Origin: Chiloscyllium plagiosum
Taxonomy: Eukaryota
DNA: 46,419 bases
Direction of reading: 5' to 3'
Assembly (NCBI RefSeq): GCF_004010195.1
Contig: NC_057728.1
Span: 8,332,704-8,379,122 of the forward strand
In this document: in pieces, positions 1 through 45,772 of the stretch
How the letters are laid out: every line of letters starts with the position of its first letter
How positions within the stretch are numbered: position 1 is the first letter of the stretch
Notes under the pieces: generated by a model
Told to the model about the DNA's origin: nothing
Databases searched by the model: none
The model's input: only the letters and a program-made list of their open reading frames with translations
Program-made: the position numbers and the translations under genes

Positions 1-419
1 AATGAATGCTTCTGGAATCCTAACCATTCTGAGTTAACACGTGCCTCTGTAATGTCCCTGGCAACCATTAACTCCCCAGATTATGCAGTTGTATGAAATT
101 TGATTTTGCATCAATTGATCTTACAAAGTCCTGACCAAACAGGCTGGAACCAGCAGAGATGTGCTTCAGATGTTGTTGAGTGAGCCCCCAGTCTGTCCTT
201 CCCTTGTGTTGAAGGAAAGAGCAGTTTGAACAAACCTCTGTTCATGCATTCATTTCTAAAAATCCCAACAGCCTTTCAGTTACACCCTCACAGCCTTGCT
301 GAACATGAGCAATCACTACCAGTGATACCAAATTCTTGAGTTAACTCGAGCCTGGCCAGTTGTGGTAATAGATTAAATTCCACTGGGACACGAGGGGCAA
401 TTCCCTCAAATTAATTCCC

Positions 420-3178
420 CAATTCCCGCCACACGTTCCCCGACTTCCGCCACCATCGCGGCCGCTTCCGCAGCCACTTCCGCCCCAATGACTCCACCCA
501 CACCACGCGTTTTGTCACTTCTGCCCCATGTCATCAATGACATCACGTGTTCTGTGACTTCTGCCACTCCTCTACTGCTGTTGTTGCCACCACTTCTGCC
601 CTCACCAACACAACTTACCTGCACACTGCCAGCACGCCTCCCACGGATCCCACTGTCTCTATCCCTGCCCCCCCAGAACCCTGAGGGGAACACCATCTCT
701 GCAAATGGCTCCAAACCCATTCCCCCAGTCACAGTCTCCGCCCCCACTCCCAGCTCCACACCTATGCAAGGTCCTATGTCCCAGCCCTGCTGGGTTTTCA
801 CCATCCCCCCAGACCTCCCCCTCACTGAGGACGAACGATCAGTCCTCAGCAAAGGCCTTACTTTCATCCACCCTGCCCACGCATCAACAAATTCAGTACA
901 CGTTGTGATGTCGAACACTTCTTCTGCTGCCTCCGCCTCTGAGCTTGCTTTTTCCATCATGACTCCCACCTACTTCCGAGGGCTCCTTCACTCGCCTTCA
1001 ACACACTCCATCCACCTGGACACCCCGTGATGGCCTATTACCTGGCCTCGATCTCTTCATTTCAAACTGCTGCCGGGACATTAACCGCCTCAACCTGTCT
1101 ACCCCCCTCCCCCACTCCAACCTCTCACCCTCACAACGCGCAGCCCTCCACTCCCTCTACTCCAATCCCGACCTCACTATCAAACCAGCGGATAAAGGGG
1201 GTGCAGTGGTAGTTTGGCTGAAGCCAGACGCCAACTCAAAGACACCTCCTCCTACCGCCCCCTCAACCATGACCTCACCTCCCATTACCAAACCATCATC
1301 TCCCAGACCATACACAAACTCATCACCTCAGGGGATCTCCTACCCACAACTTCCAACCTCCTAGTTCAGGAACCCCGCACCGCCTGATTCTACCTCCTTC
1401 CCAAGATCTACAAACCTGACTGCCCCACCCAACCCATTGTCCCAGCCAGCTCCTGCCCCACTGGACTCATCTCCACCTACATTGATACTGTCCTATCCCC
1501 CGGTCCAGGAACTTCCGACATATGTTCGGGACACCGCCCACTCCCGCCTCCTTCTCCATGACATCCGTTTCCCTGGCCCCCAACGCCTCATCTTCACCAT
1601 GGACACCCTGTCCCTCTACACCTCTATCCGCCATGACTAGGGCCTCCAAGCCCTCTGTTTCTTCCTATCCCGATATCCCCACTAGTACTCTTCCACTGAC
1701 ACTCTCATTTGTTTGGTTGAACTGGTCCTCACCCTCAACGATTTGTCTTTCAAATCCTCCCACTTCCTCCAGATGAAAGTGGTAACTATGGGCACCCGCA
1801 CGGGCCCCAGCTATGCCTGTCTCTTTGTTGGCAATGTAGAACATTCTATCTTATGTAGTTACACTGGCACCACTCCTCACCTTTTCCTCCTCTACGTTCA
1901 TGACTGCATCAGCGCCACCTCGTGCTCCCACGAGGACGTTGAGAAGTTCATCAATTTCATCAACACATTCCACCCTGACCTTAAATTCACATTGACCATC
2001 TCTGACACCTCCCTCCCCATCCTAGACCTCTCCATCTCCAAAAACGACGACCGACTCAACACTGACATTTTTTACAAACCTACTGACTCCCACAGCTCCC
2101 TGGATTACACCTCCTCCCACTCTACCTCCTGCAAAAATGCTATCCCATATTCCCAATTCCTCCGCCTCCGCCGTATCTGCTCCCAGGAGGACCAGTTCCA
2201 CCACAGAACACACTAGATGGCCTCCTTCTTTAAAGATTGTAATTTCCCCTCCCACGTGGTTGAAGATTCCTTCCAACGCACCTCCGCCCTCAAACTCCAC
2301 CCCACCAACCTCCACATAAACCACACCATCTGCCGACATTTCTGCCACCTACAAACGGACCCCACCACCGGGGATATATTTCCCTCCCACCCATATCCGC
2401 TTTCTGCAAAGACCGTTCCCTTCATGACGACCTGGTCAAGTCCACGCCCCCCAACAACCCACAGTCCCCTCCTGGCACCTTCCCCTGCCACCGCACAAAT
2501 TGCAAAACCTGCGCCCACACCTCCTCCCTCACCTCCATCCAAGATCCCAGAGGAGCCTTTTACATCCATCAAAGTTTCATCTGCACATCCACCAATGTCA
2601 TTTATTGTATCCCTTGCTCCCGATGCAGTCTCCTCTACATTAGGGAGACTGGACGCCTCCTCGCAGAGCACTTAAGGGAACATCTCTGTGACACCCGCAC
2701 CAATCAACTCCACCGCCCTGTGGCCGAACTTTTCAACTTCCCCTCCCACTTTGCCAAAGAACGCCTCATCTTCCACCGCGGAACCCTTCAACCCCAGGGT
2801 ATCAATGTGGACTTCAGTTTCCTCATTTCACCTCCCCGACCTTACCCCAGTTCCAAACTTCCAGCTCAGCACCGTCCTCATGACCTGTCCCGCCTGTCAA
2901 TCTTCCTTCCCACCTCTCCGCTCCACCCTCCTCTCTGACCTATTACTTTTATCCTTTCCTCCATCCACCTATTGCACTCTCAGCTACCTTCCAACCATCC
3001 CCACCCCCTCCCATTTATCTTTCCACCCCCGGGACTTCCAGCCTCATTCCTGATGAAGGACTCCTGCCCGAAACTTCGATTTTCCTGCTCTTTGGATGCT
3101 GCCTGACCTGCTGTTCATTTCCAGCACCACTCTAATCTTGACATTAGTCTCCAGCATCTACAGTCCTCACATTCGCCT
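420..3178 (+). mobile_element. Degenerate Penelope-like retroelement (Neptune-like): RT, GIY-YIG endonuclease and 3' pLTR
   Basis: Frameshifted RT motifs (FYLLPKIYKP, MDTLSLYTSI, MGTRTGPSYACLF, YVHDCI~YIDD, YKPTD, AIPYSQFLRLRRICS); GIY-YIG-like NVIYCIPC..C..LYI near 2594; C-terminal LIF..GTLQPQGIN; hammerhead-like pLTR at 3046. Boundaries approximate. Confidence 0.85.
3046..3081 (+). ncRNA. Degenerate minimal hammerhead ribozyme in PLE pLTR
   Basis: attc CTGATGA a ggac tcct gccc GAAAC ttc gatt; stem II mismatch and GTC>TTC, so probably inactive. Confidence 0.6.
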
Positions 3179-4645: not shown

Positions 4646-4805
4646 CATAAAAGCAAAATATTGAGGATGCTGGAAATCTGAAAAAGAAAACCGAAAGTGT
4701 TGGAGAAACTCAGCAGATCTGGCAGCGTGTGGAGAGAGAAAAACAGTTAACATTTTGAGTCCAATATGATTTCTTCGAGAGAGACTCCAGCACTTTCTGT
4801 TGCCT
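4646..4805 (-). mobile_element. Old PLE pLTR-derived short element with decayed hammerhead region
   Basis: ggatgctggaaatctgaa...aaactcagcagatctggcagc...gttaacattttgagtcc; same family as 6040-6138 and 32445-32540. Confidence 0.55.
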
Positions 4806-32444: not shown

Positions 32445-32760
32445 AAAATGTCAGAAACTCTGGATAAATTCATCAGGCCGGGCAGCATCTGTGGAGAGAA
32501 AGACACAGCCAATGTTTCAGGTGGATCACCTGTCTTCAGGTCCAAAAGGTGTCGGTCACTCAGAGCCATGGAACAGGCCGGGAGGTTCCGGGAAAGAGCA
32601 CTGGAAAGAGGGCTGAAATAGCGTGGAATCTGGAAGTGACTGAGACACAACATTGCAAGACAAAAGGAGATGAGAAAGCAAGTTTGTCAACAAAATATGG
32701 GCCCAGAAGAGGTTACAGAGTCATAGCAGAGAGGGAGGATCTGAACAAAATAAGAAGGCT
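32445..32760 (-). mobile_element. Old PLE 3' end with hammerhead remnant (32508-32540)
   Basis: Reverse complement CTGAAGA c AGGTG atc CACCT GAAAC ATT...ctctccacagatgctgcc. Confidence 0.6.
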
Positions 32761-37916: not shown

Positions 37917-38382
37917 AGGGTGTAGGTTTGCTCGCTGAGCTGTAGGTTTGATATCCAGACATTTCATTACCTGGCTAGGTAACATTGTCAGTGGCGACCT
38001 CCAAGTGAAGCGAGGCTGTTGTCTCCTGCTTTCTATTTATATGTTTGTCCTGGATGGGGTTCCTGGGGTTTGTGGTGATGTCATTTCCTGTTTGTTTTCT
38101 GAGGGATTGATAGATGGTATCTAGATCTATGTGTTTGTTTATGGCGTTGTGGTTGGAGTGCCAGGCCTCTAGGAATTCTCTGGCATGTCTTTGCTTAGCC
38201 TGTCCCAGGATAGATGTGTTGTCCCAGTCGAAATGGTGTTTTTTTCCATCCGTGTATAGGGCTACGAGGGAGAGAGGGTCGTGTCTTTTTGTGGCTAGCT
38301 GGTGTTCGTGTATCCTGGTGGCTAACTTTCTTCCTGTTTGTCCTACGTAGTGTTTGTGGCAGTCCTTGCATGGAATTTTGTA
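37917..38382 (-). mobile_element. Penelope/Poseidon-type PLE 3' fragment (GIY-YIG) with mutated hammerhead at 37955-37994
   Basis: YKIPCKDCHKHYVGQTGRKLATRIHEH; near-identical to 42517-42962; core CTGACAA...GAAATGTC. Confidence 0.9.
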
Positions 38383-38810
38383 GTTATAAACAACCTTTGT
38401 TAAACCCCATTTAGAGTACTGTGAGCAGATCTGGGCACCACACCTTAGGAAAGATAGATTGGGCAATGAATAGGAAGGGTTGAGGGGGATATGGGCCAAA
38501 TGCTGGCAAATGGGACGAGATTCATTTAGAATATCTGGTCGGCATGGACAAGTTAGACCAAAGGGTCTGTTTCCGTGCTATGCATCTCTATGACTCTATT
38601 GGCATGACCTCTTTGAATGGTGGAACAGGATCAAGGGGCTGAATAGTCTGCTCCTGTTCCTATATTCATGTGTGAAAGGAGGAGCAGATAAAGACAGGAA
38701 AGGAAAAGAAGATTGGGAGGAGGCTTCAGTAGATTGTAAGCACTATGGTGGACCAGTTGGGTTTGTGTTATAAACTCTCTCTAATTTGTCTTGTGCTGCA
38801 TTTATTGTAG

Positions 38811-38938
38811 GATGTCCATTTGGTTCAATGGCACTTTGGAGATTCGGGATCTGTCTAAGGCCGATGAGGGAGTCTATACCTGTTTTGCAGAGAACAACAG
38901 GGGAAAGGCTAACAGCAGTGGCACTTTAACAGTGACCG
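38811..38938 (+). CDS. CNTN1: Contactin exon, Ig5: MSIWFNGTLEIRDLSKADEGVYTCFAENNRGKANSSGTLTVT
   Basis: ttgtag acceptor, G|gtaagg donor; 128 nt, phase 2/1; YTCFAENNRGKANS matches CNTN1 as recalled. Confidence 0.95.
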
Positions 38939-39897
38939 GTAAGGGAGCAAAGCTTTGCCACAGAGTTATTTTAAACTGCCATTTTTAACTGAAGACTTTG
39001 GATCTCTTATTTTCAATTAAAAAATGTTCCTGAATATCTTTCCCTGGAAACCTAATTCTTTTCACGTCTGCCAAGTAATATTGCATCATCCAGTTTATCC
39101 CCTCGAGCTAGCTTTTAATAAAAGGACTAGATTGGTACAAGCGTAGTTCATGAAAGGGTTTGGTAATCTGCTACTTTCTGATGCATAACTCCCAATGTAA
39201 AATTAAATTGGTTCAAAACTGGATTGAAGCTCCTGGAGATCATAAGCACAGTTCAGTGTAAAATTTGAAGTGAACCCAACAGAGTAAAGACCAACTTCTT
39301 AACTTAAAAAAACCCTGGCTTAAATTTACAGTCATGATCCCCCTGTCCTAGGCTTCCCGATGAGCAGAAAAGGTTTCCTTTTATTTACCCTGTCAATGCT
39401 TTTCAAGATTCTCCATGCCACAGTAAATTCATCCCTATCCCAGCTAATACAAACCTAGTTTATGTGATCTCTCCTCAGAGTTGCACTCATGGATTTCTGT
39501 GAACATTTTTGTCATTCTGTGTTCCTTCTGGTATACAAAGATCATTGTCCAACCTGACTGCCACATCTCAGTTATAGTCCAAGGAGGATTTTGTATAGCT
39601 GTAATGGTATTTCCATCCCCTTTATACACTTTTGAATACAAATAAAATCTACTAAACTAATTAGCTAATTGTACCAAAAAAACAAATTTAAGTTTATATT
39701 AGAATGTTGCTTCAGTGGGAGATCATGGACTCCAGCCCCTGTGATGCAAAGCCAGACATGCACCAGTGGGCACCATGTCATCCTCTTTCAAGGTCATCTG
39801 GGCACAAACATAATATTGAAGTGAGGCAGGTACTTGGGTCTAACAACCCCAAGCATAGCCCGCTGTTTGAACCCGTTATTTGCCCCACTAGTTATCC

Positions 39898-40133
39898 AGA
39901 TTAGAATAGTGCTGGAAAAGCACAGCAGGTCAGGCAGCATCAGAGGAGCAGGAAAATCGATGTTCCAGGCAAAAGCCCTTCATCAGGAATGGCTTCGTCG
40001 GATTCCTGATGAAGGGCTTTTGCCTGAAACGTCGATTTTCCTGCTCCTCGGATGCTGCCTGAACTGCTGTGCTTTTCCAACACCACTCTAATCTAGACTC
40101 TGATCTCCAGCATCTGCAGTGCACACTTTCTGC
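39898..40133. mobile_element. Palindromic head-to-head PLE pLTR element with two hammerhead motifs
   Basis: 93-bp arms 39898-39990 and 40002-40094 (7 mismatches), 11-nt spacer, candidate TSD agttatcca/agtgatcca. Confidence 0.85.
40002..40037 (+). ncRNA. Minimal hammerhead ribozyme motif, core intact
   Basis: attc CTGATGA a GGGC tttt GCCT GAAAC GTC gatt. Confidence 0.7.
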
Positions 40134-40899
40134 GAGTGATCCAAACTAACGTTCCATTTTGGTTACTTCCAGAAATTAATTTGAACTTGAACTAGTTGGT
40201 TTATCCTCTGATATTTGCGATCTTACTCATCTCTCTGTTGAGACTCTTGTAATGCCTTATTTCAAGGCTTTCTTCATATCTCATTCCGCTGACATTATTA
40301 ATTAGACTCTGGGCTCTTTTGATCAGCTTAAATAGCGCCCCCTGTGGTTTATTAATGCAAAGGCTCAAGGCAAGAACATTGCAATTTAGTTATGACCTCA
40401 GAAAAAGCTAATCATTTCACCAGATTGTCCATTAAATCCAGAAGAATCCAAATTTAGCGATCTCCGATCGAGTAACCTGTGCTGAAGAGCAAAGTAGATT
40501 CCTGATCCAGGTTAATGAAGACATTTTTGGAAAAACCTTACATGTTGAGCAATAAGGAAGTGAAAGAAGTCAGATGTATATTTAGATCAGTGCTCATAGC
40601 ACTCGCACAATTTGTTTCTTCTGTTAGAAGTGGCAAACCTATTCTTCCTTGATAAATCATCTCCAGCTATCCCACTTCTCATCACATTATTCAGATAATT
40701 TTTTCTCAACACTTCTTCCTCTTCACTAACCCTCCTTTCATTTAGATTCTTCTGCCCTTTCTCCAAAACCACAGCTAATTGTCCCCTAATCCCATTTATA
40801 CAAAATAGGGGGACTAGCTACACCACCTCCATGTGAGAGTTTAGCAACTTGATGTATTTCCTGACCTTTGCAACAATTATGAGAAACTGTGGACTGGAC

Positions 40900-41570
40900 A
40901 AAAATCTGATATTAGCTCAATTGCCTGATGTGCACCTTCTAACGTGCGTGAAGTCCGTTTCATCCATCACCCCTGTTCCCTCTGATCTACATTGCCATCC
41001 AGTCCACCAAAACCTTGGTTTTAATATCCTCACCTCGGTATTGAACACTGTCTACCTTTCCATATCTCACTGATCTTCTCCAGCCACTCAACCCTTGGAG
41101 AACTCTGCATTCCTCAAATATGCACAATTCCCTTTGGTCCACATTGACAGTTGAGTCTGCAGTCAAGATTAGAGTGGTGCTGGAAAAGCACAGCAGGTCA
41201 GGCAGCATCCGAGGAGCAGGAAAAATCAACGTTTCAGGAATGATGAAGGGCTTTTGCCCGAAATGTCAATTTTTCCTGTTCCTTGGATGCAGCCTAACCT
41301 GTTGTGCTTTTCCAGCACCACTCTCATCGTGACTCTGATCGCCAGCATCTGCAGTACTCACTTCCACCCAGTTAAGTCTGCAGCCATTTGATCCTGAGCT
41401 GTGGAACTCTCTCCTTAATCTTCTCTTTCCTCTTCAATATTCTGCTTAGAATCTGTCTCTCTCATCAGGCTTTCTGTTGTGAACCCTCATATCGCTTTCC
41501 TTGGCTTATTATCAATTTGTCTTCAATTACATCTCTGTAAAGCGCTTTGACATGTCTCCTAGACACAAAA
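40900..41570 (+). mobile_element. Degenerate L2 LINE 3' region (hosts the palindrome at 41163-41368)
   Basis: ITPVPSDLHCHPVHQNLGFNIL resembles L2 ITPVL..LHWLPV..RI.FKIL; tail tgtaaagcgctttga. Confidence 0.6.
41163..41368. mobile_element. Second palindromic PLE pLTR element
   Basis: Arms ~41161-41235 and 41260-41334 around a damaged hammerhead core (atgatgaagggcttttgcccgaaatgtc); 15-bp TSD cagtt(g/a)agtctgcag at 41148-41162 and 41369-41383. Confidence 0.85.
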
Positions 41571-42087
41571 TACATGCCATTTGTTGTTGATGTCATTTTG
41601 CCAGTACTAACTGAGTTTCTTTGGCTTTTACCATGTGATAATTTCAAAGTCACATCCTCCCTTGCTGATGCAGTGTAATGCTACACAAGCAAGCAACATA
41701 ATCCAGACGTTGGTCAAGATCCTGTGAAATGGGAGTTAGTGTGGACGGAACAATTTTGTGTAACTGCATACTTTACAGGATAGGAACTTTACTTGGGAGC
41801 AACAAGAGAGCTTTTTCAGCGCAGCATTAGTTATTGGAGTAGATGATTAAAATTAATATTTTAAAAAGCCCATGAGGAGTAAGGAGTTTGTTTGAAAACC
41901 TTTACAAACTAGCTGCCAGCACCCACAGTGTCCCATCAGCTTTCATGTTTTGTCTCCCATTTGAACACAAAGTACACATGGCTTACAGTTCCACATTCTT
42001 CTTTGGCTCATGCTTTTTGGAAAGTTTTCAAGATGTTTAGATGTTGTAAATATGTTGGTTTTACATTTCTTCTTTTTGTCCTTACAG

Positions 42088-42263
42088 AACCCACCAGAAT
42101 CACTCTTGAGCCATCGAACATTGATATTACTGTAGGGGAAAATGGCACGATGGAGTGCCATGCATCTCATGATCCCATCCTGGACCTGTCATTAGTCTGG
42201 TCAACAAATGGTTATACCATTGACTTTGAGAAAGAGAAAGACTACATGGAACGCAGGATAGAG
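42088..42263 (+). CDS. CNTN1: Contactin exon, Ig6: EPTRITLEPSNIDITVGENGTMECHASHDPILDLSLVWSTNGYTIDFEKEKDYMERRIE
   Basis: ccttacag acceptor, GAG|gtaagt donor; 176 nt, phase 1/0; DITVGEN and NGY.IDF motifs. Confidence 0.95.
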
Positions 42264-42533
42264 GTAAGTGTCCAGAGGTAAAGGTCATTAAAATGTCCTT
42301 GTCACGTGCTGATCTAGGTTATTTTCATTGAACAACATTCTCATCACAGGTTATCACTGCAATCATCAATCAAATCAACTACCTTCCATTTAATGTCAGA
42401 CCACAGAACACTAATGTTTGCATAATTACAATATGTACCCAGACTCAATGGCAATACCTAGACTGGTGTTAATTTCCTGAAGGAATCAGAAATTTAGCAG
42501 AGTTCTATTATCTCTTGGGTGTCGGTTTGATAT

Positions 42534-42573
42534 CCAGACGTTTCATTACCTGGCTAGGTAACATCATCAGTGG
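42534..42573 (-). ncRNA. Intact minimal type I hammerhead ribozyme
   Basis: Reverse complement: cca CTGATGA t GTTACCT agcc AGGTAAT GAAAC GTC tgg; stem I cca/tgg, 7-bp stem II, palindromic ACGU stem III, GUC site. Confidence 0.8.
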
Positions 42574-43224
42574 CGACCTCCAAGTGAAGCGAAGCTGTTG
42601 TCTCCTGCTTTCTATTTATATGTTTGTCCTGGATGGGGTTCCTGGGGTTTGTGGTGATGTCATTTCCTGTTTGTTTTTTGAGGGATTGATAGATGGTATC
42701 TAGATCTATGTGTTTGTTTATGGCGTTGTGGTTGGAGTGCCAGGCCTCTAGGAATTCTCTGGCATGTCTTTGCTTAGCCTGTCCCAGGATAGATGTTTGT
42801 CCCAGTCGAAATGGTGTTTTTTTTCCCTCCGTGTGTAGGGCTACGAGGGAGAGAGGGTCGTGTCTTTTTGTGGCTAGCTGGTGTTCGTGTATCCTGGTGG
42901 CTAACTTTCTTCCTGTTTGTCCTACGTAGTGTTTGTGGCAGTCCTTGCATGGAATTTTGTAGATAACGTTGGTTTTATCCATGGGTTGTACTGGGTCTTT
43001 TAAGTTTGTTAGCTTTTGTTTGAGAGTGTTGGTGGGTTTGTGTGCTACTAGGATTCCCAGGGGTCTTAGTAGTCTGGCTGTCATTTCTGAAACTTCGTTG
43101 ATGCATGGTAAGGTGGTTAGGGTTTCTGGCTGTGTTGGTCTGCTTGTCGTGGTTTGTTCTTGAGGAATCTGCGAACCACCTATACAACGTATTCAAGAAG
43201 AACGGATACTCAAAAAAATACAGT

Positions 43225-43591
43225 NNNNNNNNNNNNNNNNNNNNNNNNNNNNNNNNNNNNNNNNNNNNNNNNNNNNNNNNNNNNNNNNNNNNNNNNNNNN
43301 NNNNNNNNNNNNNNNNNNNNNNNNNNNNNNNNNNNNNNNNNNNNNNNNNNNNNNNNNNNNNNNNNNNNNNNNNNNNNNNNNNNNNNNNNNNNNNNNNNNN
43401 NNNNNNNNNNNNNNNNNNNNNNNNNNNNNNNNNNNNNNNNNNNNNNNNNNNNNNNNNNNNNNNNNNNNNNNNNNNNNNNNNNNNNNNNNNNNNNNNNNNN
43501 NNNNNNNNNNNNNNNNNNNNNNNNNNNNNNNNNNNNNNNNNNNNNNNNNNNNNNNNNNNNNNNNNNNNNNNNNNNNNNNNNNNNNNNNNNN
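43225..43591. other. Assembly gap (367 N)
   Basis: Run of n. Confidence 0.99.
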
Positions 43592-44489
43592 TTCTTTCGA
43601 CTGTGACGTCCAGGAATGCGAGTTTGTTGTCGGTTTCTTCCTCCTTGGTGAACTTTATGCCTGTGAGGGTGTTGTTGATGATGTTAAATGTCTCTTCTAT
43701 CTTGTTTCATTTTGTGATGACAAAGGTGTTATCTACGTAGCGGACCCAGATTTTTGGTTTGATGGTTGGTAGGGCTGTTTGTTTTAGTCTTTGCATTACC
43801 GCTTCTGCTATGAATCCTGATAGCATGGGTGATCCCATGGGTGTGCCATTGGTTTGTTTGTAGACTATGTTGTTGAAGGTGAAGTGGGTGGTAAGGCACA
43901 GGTCCACTAGCTTCATGATGTTTTTGTTGGTACTGTGATTGGTGGTTGGTGTGTGTGTGATGCTCTCTTCTAAAAGTGTGGTAAGTGTTTCCTTTGCCAG
44001 GTCGCTTTTGATGGAAGTGAACAGTGCTATTACGTCGAATGAGATCATTGTTTCATCTTCCTCTATTTTGGTGTTTTTGATGATTTTTAGGAATTCCTGG
44101 GTGGAGTGGATGGAGTGTTGTGACTCTTCTACTAGGTACTTCAGTCTTGCGTGTAGTTCTTTGGCCAGTCTGTAAGTTGGTGTTCCGGGTAGTGAGACTA
44201 TGGGTCTGAGGGGGGCTCCTGATTTATGGATTTTTGGTAGTCTGTAGAATCGTGGGGTGTTGGTCCCATCTGATTTCATTTTCTGGAATTCCGTCTTGTT
44301 TAATTGTCCAGAATTGTGTAATTTTTTTAGGAGATATGTAATTTTGTTTCCGAATTGTGGGGTTGGGTCTAGCGCCACCTGTTGGTAGGTGTTGGTGTCT
44401 GCGAGTAGTACATTGGCTTTCTCTATGTAGTCCCTTCTGTTCAGGATGACTGTGAGCCGACCTTTGTCTATTATCTCTTTTTTTGGCTT

Positions 44490-45772
44490 GAGAACATGGA
44501 ACATTACAGCACAGTATAGGCACTTTGGCCCTCCATGTTGCACCAACCCATGAAACCAATCTAAAGCCCATCTAACCTACACTATTCCATTATCATCAAA
44601 ATGTTTATCCAATGACCATTTAAATGCCCTTAAAGTTGGCAAGTCCACTACTGTTGCAGGCGGGGTGTTCTACTCCCCTATTACTCTCTGAGTAAAGAAC
44701 CTACCTCTAACATCTGTCCCATATCTATGACCCTGAAATTTAAAGCTATGTCCCCTCATGCTAGCCATCACCATCTGAGGAAAAAGGTTCTCACTGTCCA
44801 CACTATCTAAACCTCTGATCATCTTATATGCCTCTATTAAATCACCTCTTAACCTTCTTCTCACTTAACGAAAACAGCCTCAAGTCCCTCAGCCTTTCCT
44901 CATAAGACCTTCCCTCCATACCAGGCAACATCCTGGTAAATCTCCTTTACACCCTTTCCAATGCTTCCACATTCTTGATATAATGCGGCGACCAGAACTG
45001 TATGCCATACTCCAAGTGCGGCCGCACTAGAGTTTTGTACAGCTGCAGCATGATCCCATGGCTCCAAAGCTCAATCCCTCTACCAATAAAAGCTAACACA
45101 CCGTACACCACCTTAACAACCCTATCAATTGGGGTGGCAACTTTTAGGCATCTCTGCTCATCTACACTACCAAGAATCTTGCCATTAGCCCAGGACTCTT
45201 TATTCATGTTACTCCTTCCAACGTGAATCATCTCATACTTCTCCGCATTAAACTCCATTTGCCACCTCTCAATCCAGCTCTGCTGCTTATCTATGTCCCT
45301 CTGTAACCTGCAATATCCTTCAGCACTGTCCACCCACCTTAGTGTCATCTGCAGATTTACTAACCCATCCTTCTGTGCCCTCATCCAGGTCATTTATAAA
45401 AATGACAAACAGCAGTGGCCCCAAAACAGATCTTTATGGTACACCACTAGTAACTGAACTCCAGGATGAACATTACCCATCAACCACCACCCTCTATCTT
45501 CTTTCAGCTAGCCAATTTCTGATTCAAACTGCTAAATCACCTTCAATCCCATGCCTCCGTATTTTCTGCAATAGCCGGCCATGGGGAGTCTTACCAAATG
45601 CCTTACTGAAAGTCACATGCACCCCATCAACTGCTTTACTGTCATCCACCTGTTTGGTCACCATCTTAAAGAACTCTGTAAGATTTGTGAGGCAAGACCT
45701 ACCCTTCACAAAACCGTGTTGACTATCCCTAATCAAATTATTCCTTTCTAGATGATTTATGTATCCCATCTC
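44490..45772 (-). mobile_element. CR1 LINE (second subfamily), 5'-truncated
   Basis: QHGFVKGRSCLTNLTEFF, FSKAF, WQMEFNAEK, LYKTLVRPHLEY, LRGDLIEAYKMIRG; atgttct-type tail. Confidence 0.92.

What the first reader, a model, noticed from the sequence alone, without database searches (positions are those of the whole stretch)
39890..40143. TSD-flanked palindrome with a hammerhead on each strand
Seen: 93-bp inverted arms (7 mismatches) separated by ggcttcgtcgg. Both arms start at the same base, the attc of hammerhead stem I, so the ribozymes are head-to-head at the centre. The right arm has a ~40-nt extra tail. Candidate TSD agttatcca/agtgatcca. Established: PLE insertions often carry inverted pLTRs. 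Inference: a MITE-looking but retro-derived unit in which either strand yields a ribozyme masked by its own antisense, and a long dsRNA hairpin in the contactin pre-mRNA.
Basis: partly seen in the sequence, partly recalled or inferred. Interest (0 to 1): 0.7.

Follow-up and report, generated by a model that had tools for sequence, protein, structure and literature searches.

The report
Twin-primed Penelope retrotransposon stub palindrome
This mirror-image repeat in an intron of a contactin-1-like gene is one of many thousands of stubs of a Penelope-type jumping gene, each likely built on landing from two short DNA copies of the front end of its RNA, so it is likely a dead footprint of how these elements insert and not a working double ribozyme.

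Summary
The palindrome is real: 93-bp arms with 7 mismatches, an 11-bp centre, a one-sided tail and a weak 9-bp TSD, in an intron of a contactin-1-like gene. It is two head-to-head copies of the terminal repeat (pLTR) of an abundant Penelope-like element (PLE). At least 1,987 exact centres exist genome-wide, and this spacer is unique. In 69 sampled palindromes, 67 have exactly one tailed arm and none has two; TSDs are mostly 14-16 bp. Arm 5' ends pile up at -5..+15 around the hammerhead's first base, with no peak at its cut site. Best reading: both nicked target strands prime on uncut sense RNA at two start sites about 35 nt apart, run off its 5' end and are joined by microhomology. It is not a MITE. 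'A hammerhead on each strand' fails here: the minus-strand copy has core and helix III mutations, and the plus-strand copy is buried in the hairpin. The architecture is in print, and this scan has noted such palindromes before (214 notes, this genome included). Added here: snap-back inserts and direct template-jump products.

The parts
39890..39898 (+). Left copy of candidate 9-bp TSD (overlaps the left arm end by 4 nt)
   Evidence: weak on its own (controls)
39895..39990 (-). Left arm: tail-less pLTR copy, element positions +1 to +96
39955..39990 (-). Degenerate minimal hammerhead motif (core GAAA mutated to GGAA, helix III palindrome broken)
39991..40001 (.). Junction filler: the first 4-5 nt copy the element's own helix II/loop (snap-back or cross-priming insert); the remainder is of uncertain origin; unique in the genome
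40002..40097 (+). Right arm: pLTR copy, positions +1 to +96
40002..40037 (+). Minimal type-I hammerhead motif (helix I 4 bp with U-U, CUGAUGA, extra A, 4-bp helix II with G-U, GAAA, palindromic ACGU); predicted cut after 40033
   Evidence: features compared with PMC4209133
40098..40133 (+). PLE 'tail': 36 nt between the two inferred reverse-transcription start sites
   Evidence: PMC11167929
40135..40143 (+). Right copy of candidate TSD
38811..38937 (+). Upstream exon of the contactin-1-like host gene (approximate ends)
42088..42263 (+). Downstream exon of the contactin-1-like host gene (approximate ends)
41148..41383 (+). Second, independent palindrome of the same family in the same intron; different centre, 15-bp TSD
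377..3178 (+). Long decayed copy of the parent PLE (RT and zinc-knuckle/GIY-YIG fragments) ending in the same pLTR and tail at 3046-3178

Best explanation
It is a short insertion of a Penelope-like retrotransposon, two head-to-head copies of its terminal repeat, likely made at this site when both cut DNA strands primed reverse transcription on the front end of the element's uncut RNA. Steps: (1) inferred: the endonuclease makes staggered nicks, usually about 14-16 nt apart; (2) inferred: one 3' end starts at about +96 and the other at about +132, one site per strand, which gives the one-sided tail; (3) inferred: both cDNAs stop after 100-130 nt because the RNA begins at about -5..+1, probably a transcription start; (4) partly shown by junction sequences: the free cDNA ends re-prime on element sequence by microhomology and are joined, leaving a site-specific filler. 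The unit is likely a dead-end product whose ribozyme motifs are inactive passengers.
For: Parent element: the same pLTR ends a long copy in the window whose fragments match RT + GIY-YIG proteins, and it opens the element body in other copies. One tail per palindrome: 40 of 40 centre-selected loci and 27 of 29 random ones (1 of 30 dropped at a region edge); none has two tails, while solos are about half tailed (54 of 113; p about 4e-18 against independent choice). TSD score >=8 in 37 of 40 loci against 0 of 197 shuffles, and in 21 of 29 random pairs. Rate of 5' ends per nt: 0.062 at -5..+4, about 0.003 upstream, 0.009 at the cut site and equally 0.009 at +16..+30. The AGCC insert follows each subfamily's own loop: TA precedes it in 82 of the first 100 listed TTAT-loop copies, AA in 14 of 30 TTTT-loop copies (p 1e-9). 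In 7 of 19 AGCC palindromes, and at this locus, the arm carrying the insert lacks the tail that its partner has, so the partner cannot be a fold-back copy of it. In vitro, the anole PLE protein nicks and extends both strands, starts at two internal sites bounding the tail, and uses uncut RNA (PMC11167929).
Against: No RNA 5' end was observed. 92% of exact-match arms have a pyrimidine at -1 (18,746 against G 908 and A 677), and ends spread from -7 to +6 in 80 arms, so the stop is a zone and a cap-derived G is not shown. About 30 of 150 arms pass the zone into upstream sequence, which needs a second, read-through RNA. In vitro the two strands showed no difference in start site, so the one-site-per-strand coupling is inferred from genomes only. 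The TSD here is short and weak. Two of 29 random palindromes lack a full tail, and a few arm ends (103-115) are ambiguous.
Confidence: 0.72

Rival explanations
1. Self-priming or fold-back: one cDNA (or an antisense RNA, as proposed in PMC3846280) folds back near the ribozyme and is copied to make the second arm.
For: Junctions carry self-complementary microhomologies and snap-back inserts. In 11 of 19 AGCC palindromes the insert-bearing arm is the tailed one, which fold-back allows. Published reading of head-to-head junctions.
Against: In 7 of 19, and at this locus, the partner arm has 36 nt that the insert-bearing arm lacks. Tail-less arms end at the same +85..+100 site as solo copies. An antisense RNA template is not excluded by direct data.
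Confidence: 0.15
2. The stop zone is a reverse-transcriptase stall or a processing site at the hammerhead fold of a longer RNA, not a transcription start; twin priming is otherwise the same.
For: The zone coincides with helix I; ends are spread; no cap G shown; in D. virilis an intron ends at helix I (PMC4209133).
Against: A stall would be expected at the 3' foot of the helices (+24 to +36), where there is no excess. The bases before +1 are not AG. Element copies that open the body also start near +1. Positions -1/+1 are always pyrimidine/A, initiator-like (motif recalled).
Confidence: 0.2
3. A non-autonomous palindromic element (MITE-like) that spreads as a unit.
For: Uniform 200-250 bp size and high copy number; one centre recurs in 4 of 40 loci and one join in about 7 of 30.
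Against: The spacer is unique; 37 of 40 centres are distinct; recurring centres are zero-insert microhomology joins in different subfamilies with the tail on either arm; ends are asymmetric; TSDs of 14-16 bp are as in solo copies.
Confidence: 0.04
4. A functional, selected dsRNA or masked-ribozyme module in the contactin intron.
For: Very stable predicted hairpin; two such palindromes lie in this intron.
Against: Density is about 31 tight palindromes per Mb in random DNA, so two in 3 kb needs little explanation; arms are 8% diverged, as in sister loci (mean 9%); the minus-strand motif is mutated.
Confidence: 0.04

Closest known systems
Insertion unit of endonuclease-bearing PLEs: inverted pLTR, 30-40 bp tail on one end, TSD (Adineta Pen2a, PMC3846280 passages and Discussion; PMC8557442 passages)
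   Same: Head-to-head pLTRs, tail at one end only, TSD, microhomology at the inverted junction.
   Different: No ORF between the repeats; about 100,000 copies by extrapolation; both arms stop in one narrow zone; the published explanation is antisense self-priming, while the data here favour twin priming.
Poseidon_Ac in vitro TPRT (PMC11167929, main text parts 1-2 of 4 read)
   Same: Two internal RT start sites bounding the tail, both strands nicked and extended, hammerhead cleavage not needed.
   Different: Different PLE family; that text does not describe palindrome formation, one start site per strand, or a run-off zone.
Minimal hammerheads of metazoan PLEs (PMC4209133, Results and Discussion read)
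   Same: Short helix I, extra base after A9, palindromic positions 15.2-16.2; pairs on opposite strands 100-700 bp apart were already noted there.
   Different: Both copies here are decayed; helix II is 4 bp; monomers had no detectable activity in that paper.
LINE-1 twin priming (recalled, no call)
   Same: A second nick primes a second cDNA on the same kind of RNA and gives an inversion.
   Different: L1 arms cover different RNA segments; here both cover the same 100 nt, with fixed internal start sites and no poly(A).
Non-LTR retrozymes (bioRxiv 10.64898/2026.07.22.740005, part 1 and passages)
   Same: Non-coding, pLTR-derived, type-I hammerhead.
   Different: Retrozymes are head-to-tail tandems; tail-to-start tandems are rare here (27 exact matches, against 1,987 head-to-head centres; patterns of similar but not equal stringency).

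Membership tests
EN+ Penelope-like element insertion | Parent encodes RT and GIY-YIG endonuclease | tested here: met
   Window 1686-2213 is 82% identical to an RVT_1 protein; window 2264-2677 aligns to the GIY-YIG region of an RT+GIY-YIG protein, E 3e-19. Direct Pfam scans of the decayed fragments found nothing.
EN+ Penelope-like element insertion | pLTR found at both the end and the start of the element body | tested here: met
EN+ Penelope-like element insertion | 30-40 bp tail at one end only | tested here: met
   36 nt here; 67 of 69 palindromes
EN+ Penelope-like element insertion | Target-site duplication | tested here: met
   Family: 37 of 40 against 0 of 197 controls. This locus: 9 bp with 1 mismatch, weak.
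EN+ Penelope-like element insertion | Clade placement (Neptune, Poseidon, Nematis) by RT phylogeny | not tested
   A CxxxxCxxC-type linker before the endonuclease is visible; reading it as Neptune/Nematis-like rests on the description in PMC8557442; no tree was built.
Minimal type-I hammerhead, plus strand | CUGANGA, GAAA, NUH, helices I-II, palindromic helix III, G10.1-C11.1 | tested here: inconclusive
   Core intact; G10.1-U11.1 and a U-U in helix I; buried in context
Minimal type-I hammerhead, minus strand | Intact GAAA core and palindromic helix III | tested here: not met
   GGAA and ACAU
Minimal type-I hammerhead | Self-cleavage | not testable with these tools
   Needs an assay; genomic copies show no excess of ends at the cut site
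MITE | Shared internal sequence, amplified as a unit | tested here: not met
MITE | Symmetric terminal inverted repeats reaching both ends | tested here: not met
   One-sided tail in 67 of 69
Non-LTR retrozyme | Head-to-tail tandem units each with an intact hammerhead | tested here: not met
   Head-to-head here; tandems rare

The most novel reading that the evidence does not exclude
PLEs make a 'strong-stop'-like intermediate: a dimeric RT-endonuclease loads its two active sites at two fixed points near the RNA's 5' end, one per nicked strand, and both run off after 100-130 nt. The outcome depends on where the run-off end lands: on the other cDNA (palindrome), on the target (solo), or on a downstream point of element RNA (pLTR-body-pLTR copies, up to full length). 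One mechanism would then explain inverted pLTRs, the one-sided tail and direct pLTRs without antisense templates or circular RNA. The 13 direct joints of body sequence to a second pLTR, 9 of them starting at +1, are the jump products it predicts.
Probability: 0.4. Interest if true: 0.62.

Novelty: new member of a known kind. Interest (0 to 1): 0.3.

Why it matters
The locus itself is ordinary. The family is a large natural record of PLE integration, whose inverted and tandem structures are called unexplained in PMC8557442. The one-tail rule, the run-off zone and the jump products give predictions that the existing in vitro PLE system can test directly. Practically, such stubs can be mistaken for MITEs, miRNA hairpins or double ribozymes, and about 100,000 of them (extrapolated) are a potential source of intronic dsRNA.

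Tried and rejected
RNA data: no RNA holder was listed. Laying runs on 38700-42400 gave almost no raw reads on the unique intron flanks; reads on the palindromes came from other copies, so editing and expression of this locus were not tested. Laying on a tandem copy found no place where many molecules begin or end; this run type is a poor test of 5' ends. Cap-derived G (lead from earlier scan notes): G 908 against A 677 at -1, but 14 of 30 G loci have TG there, which re-priming on the element's own CTGAT can give; inconclusive. I first read AGCC as upstream element sequence; rejected. An apparent peak of ends at +32 came from an older related family (6 of 17 ends near the cut site). The filter that removed it also dropped some true arms (17 of 176 removed), and the rates were alike before and after. 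A 135-nt circular retrozyme as source: tail-to-start tandems are rare and heterogeneous. Arm-to-arm gene conversion: no sign (within-locus 0.91, between 0.84, nearest other 0.94). Rfam miRNA hits are far below threshold. Look-up of earlier findings by sequence found nothing. Literature searches listed no paper on ORF-less pLTR palindromes, twin priming in PLEs or the one-tail statistic; the library lacks most subscription papers, older Penelope papers and Repbase, and I read no supplements (Fig. S2 of PMC11167929 may bear on 5' ends).

Full report
Observation. The arms, spacer, tail and candidate TSD are as described: 93 bp with 7 mismatches around GGCTTCGTCGG, hairpin z = -17.5. The unit lies in a 3.1-kb intron of a contactin-1-like gene on the plus strand; one contig from a run guessed to be RNA joins the two flanking exons. 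The 9-bp TSD has one mismatch and scores 6, a value reached by 22 of 197 shuffled flank pairs, so it is believable mainly because the family has TSDs.

Identity. Each arm is the terminal repeat (pLTR) of a Penelope-like element. A long decayed copy at window 377-3178 ends in the same repeat. Its fragments match an RT protein at 82% (best named hits are from sharks) and the GIY-YIG region of an RT+GIY-YIG protein. In other copies the repeat and tail run on into the element body. I number from the A of ATTCC as +1; the predicted hammerhead cut is after +32 and the tail ends near +132.

Abundance and origin. An exact 30-base pattern for the palindromic centre matches 1,987 loci. In 100 arbitrary 10-kb stretches (960 kb without N) there were 176 arms at 85% identity or more and 30 tight head-to-head pairs, about 31 per Mb or roughly 100,000 by extrapolation. 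This locus's spacer occurs once, allowing one mismatch. Of 40 centre-selected loci (the first 40 distinct of 50 listed), 37 have distinct centres. The recurring joins are microhomology joins seen in different subfamilies, with the tail on either arm. Both arms were of the same subfamily in all 25 of 33 loci where both could be typed. Each palindrome is therefore built at its own site; it is not a MITE.

Outer ends. All 40 centre-selected loci and 27 of 29 random pairs (one dropped at an edge) have exactly one tailed arm; none has two. Solo copies end at either site about equally (54 tailed, 56 tail-less, 3 shorter), so independent choice predicts about half mixed; p is about 4e-18. A few ends at 103-115 are ambiguous. 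TSDs are clear in 37 of 40 against 0 of 197 controls, mostly 14-16 bp including 1-3 nt of microhomology, and in 21 of 29 random pairs. The anole PLE protein nicks and extends both strands and starts at two internal sites that bound the tail (PMC11167929), which gives these ends a biochemical basis; that paper saw no strand difference in start site, so the coupling is inferred from genomes.

Inner ends. Of 150 usable arms, 77 end between -5 and +15. The rate of ending per base is 0.062 at -5..+4, about 0.003 at -16..-150, and 0.009 both at the cut site and at +16..+30 (alike before filtering). Templates were therefore mostly uncut, as in vitro. The stop is a zone: in 80 arms, 35 end at +2..+6, 11 at +1 and 34 match upstream sequence, mostly 2-3 nt and more often than chance; 92% of exact matches have a pyrimidine at -1. 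About a fifth of arms pass the zone. I read the zone as the RNA's 5' end, probably a transcription start (an internal promoter is reported for D. virilis Penelope, PMC2377424 passages), but no RNA end was observed.

Junction chemistry. The GGCT that opens the spacer here is not upstream element sequence. The same insert occurs in 135 exact matches, in solos and palindromes of several subfamilies, and the bases next to it follow each subfamily's own helix II loop (82 of 100 against 14 of 30). It is a re-priming of the finished cDNA end on element sequence. At this locus and in 7 of 19 such palindromes the insert-bearing arm lacks the tail its partner has, so the partner was primed separately. 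In 11 of 19 the insert-bearing arm is tailed, which does not discriminate.

Jump products. Among 30 loci fetched with the tail and body start, 13 join the body, cut 240-1,500 nt past the tail, directly to a second short pLTR; 9 of these start at +1 and two share one junction. Five of 13 have a clear duplication around the whole unit (score 10 or more; 5 of 156 controls) and two more have a weaker one at the right place. They fit run-off followed by a template jump. This set was chosen by similarity and is small.

Ribozymes. The plus-strand motif fits the minimal hammerhead of PMC4209133 except for G10.1-U11.1 and a U-U in helix I. The minus-strand motif has GGAA for GAAA and has lost the helix III palindrome. 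In context the plus motif's helix II has pairing probability below 1e-6; without the left arm helix II forms but helix I does not. In the random sample 31 of 82 arms keep the core. A double ribozyme is not supported at this locus.

Comparison and verdict. Inverted pLTR, one-sided tail and TSD are the published PLE architecture (PMC3846280; PMC8557442), and opposite-strand minimal hammerhead pairs were noted in PMC4209133. The published explanation, antisense self-priming, fits these data less well than twin priming on sense RNA. My seven paper searches listed no account of ORF-less pLTR palindromes or of the one-tail statistic, within the limits of the library. This scan has 214 earlier notes on such palindromes, several in this genome with the same reading; I had reached that reading before opening them, and they are not independent support. 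Verdict: a real but ordinary member of a known kind, useful as evidence on mechanism. Interest 0.3.

Noticed in passing
window 41148-41383: Second palindrome of the same family in the same intron, different centre, 15-bp TSD with 1 mismatch.
   Followed up: partly
L213, L218, L219, L222, L224, L225, L226, L229, L231, L236, L237, L239, L240: pLTR plus truncated body joined directly to a second pLTR that mostly starts at +1; several have one TSD around the whole unit; read as template-jump products.
   Followed up: partly
window 37932-38577 and 42511-44576, minus strand: Two copies (97% alike over 286 nt) of a second, unrelated PLE family with RT and GIY-YIG reading frames and its own hammerhead-like motif near 42570.
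   Followed up: no
window 377-3178: Near-full-length decayed copy of the parent PLE with a cysteine-rich linker before the endonuclease.
   Followed up: partly
L032, L044, L045, L089, L114; window 4697-4742, 32462-32540: An older related pLTR family (about 75-80% alike) that also forms palindromes.
   Followed up: no
L017 flanks: A palindrome inserted into the hammerhead-like motif of the other PLE family.
   Followed up: no
G000:C1:10199823 and 10201061 (L146): Two palindromes 1.2 kb apart with nearly the same complex spacer, probably a local duplication after insertion.
   Followed up: no
window 15984-42263: At least six Ig-domain exons of a contactin-1-like gene on the plus strand.
   Followed up: partly
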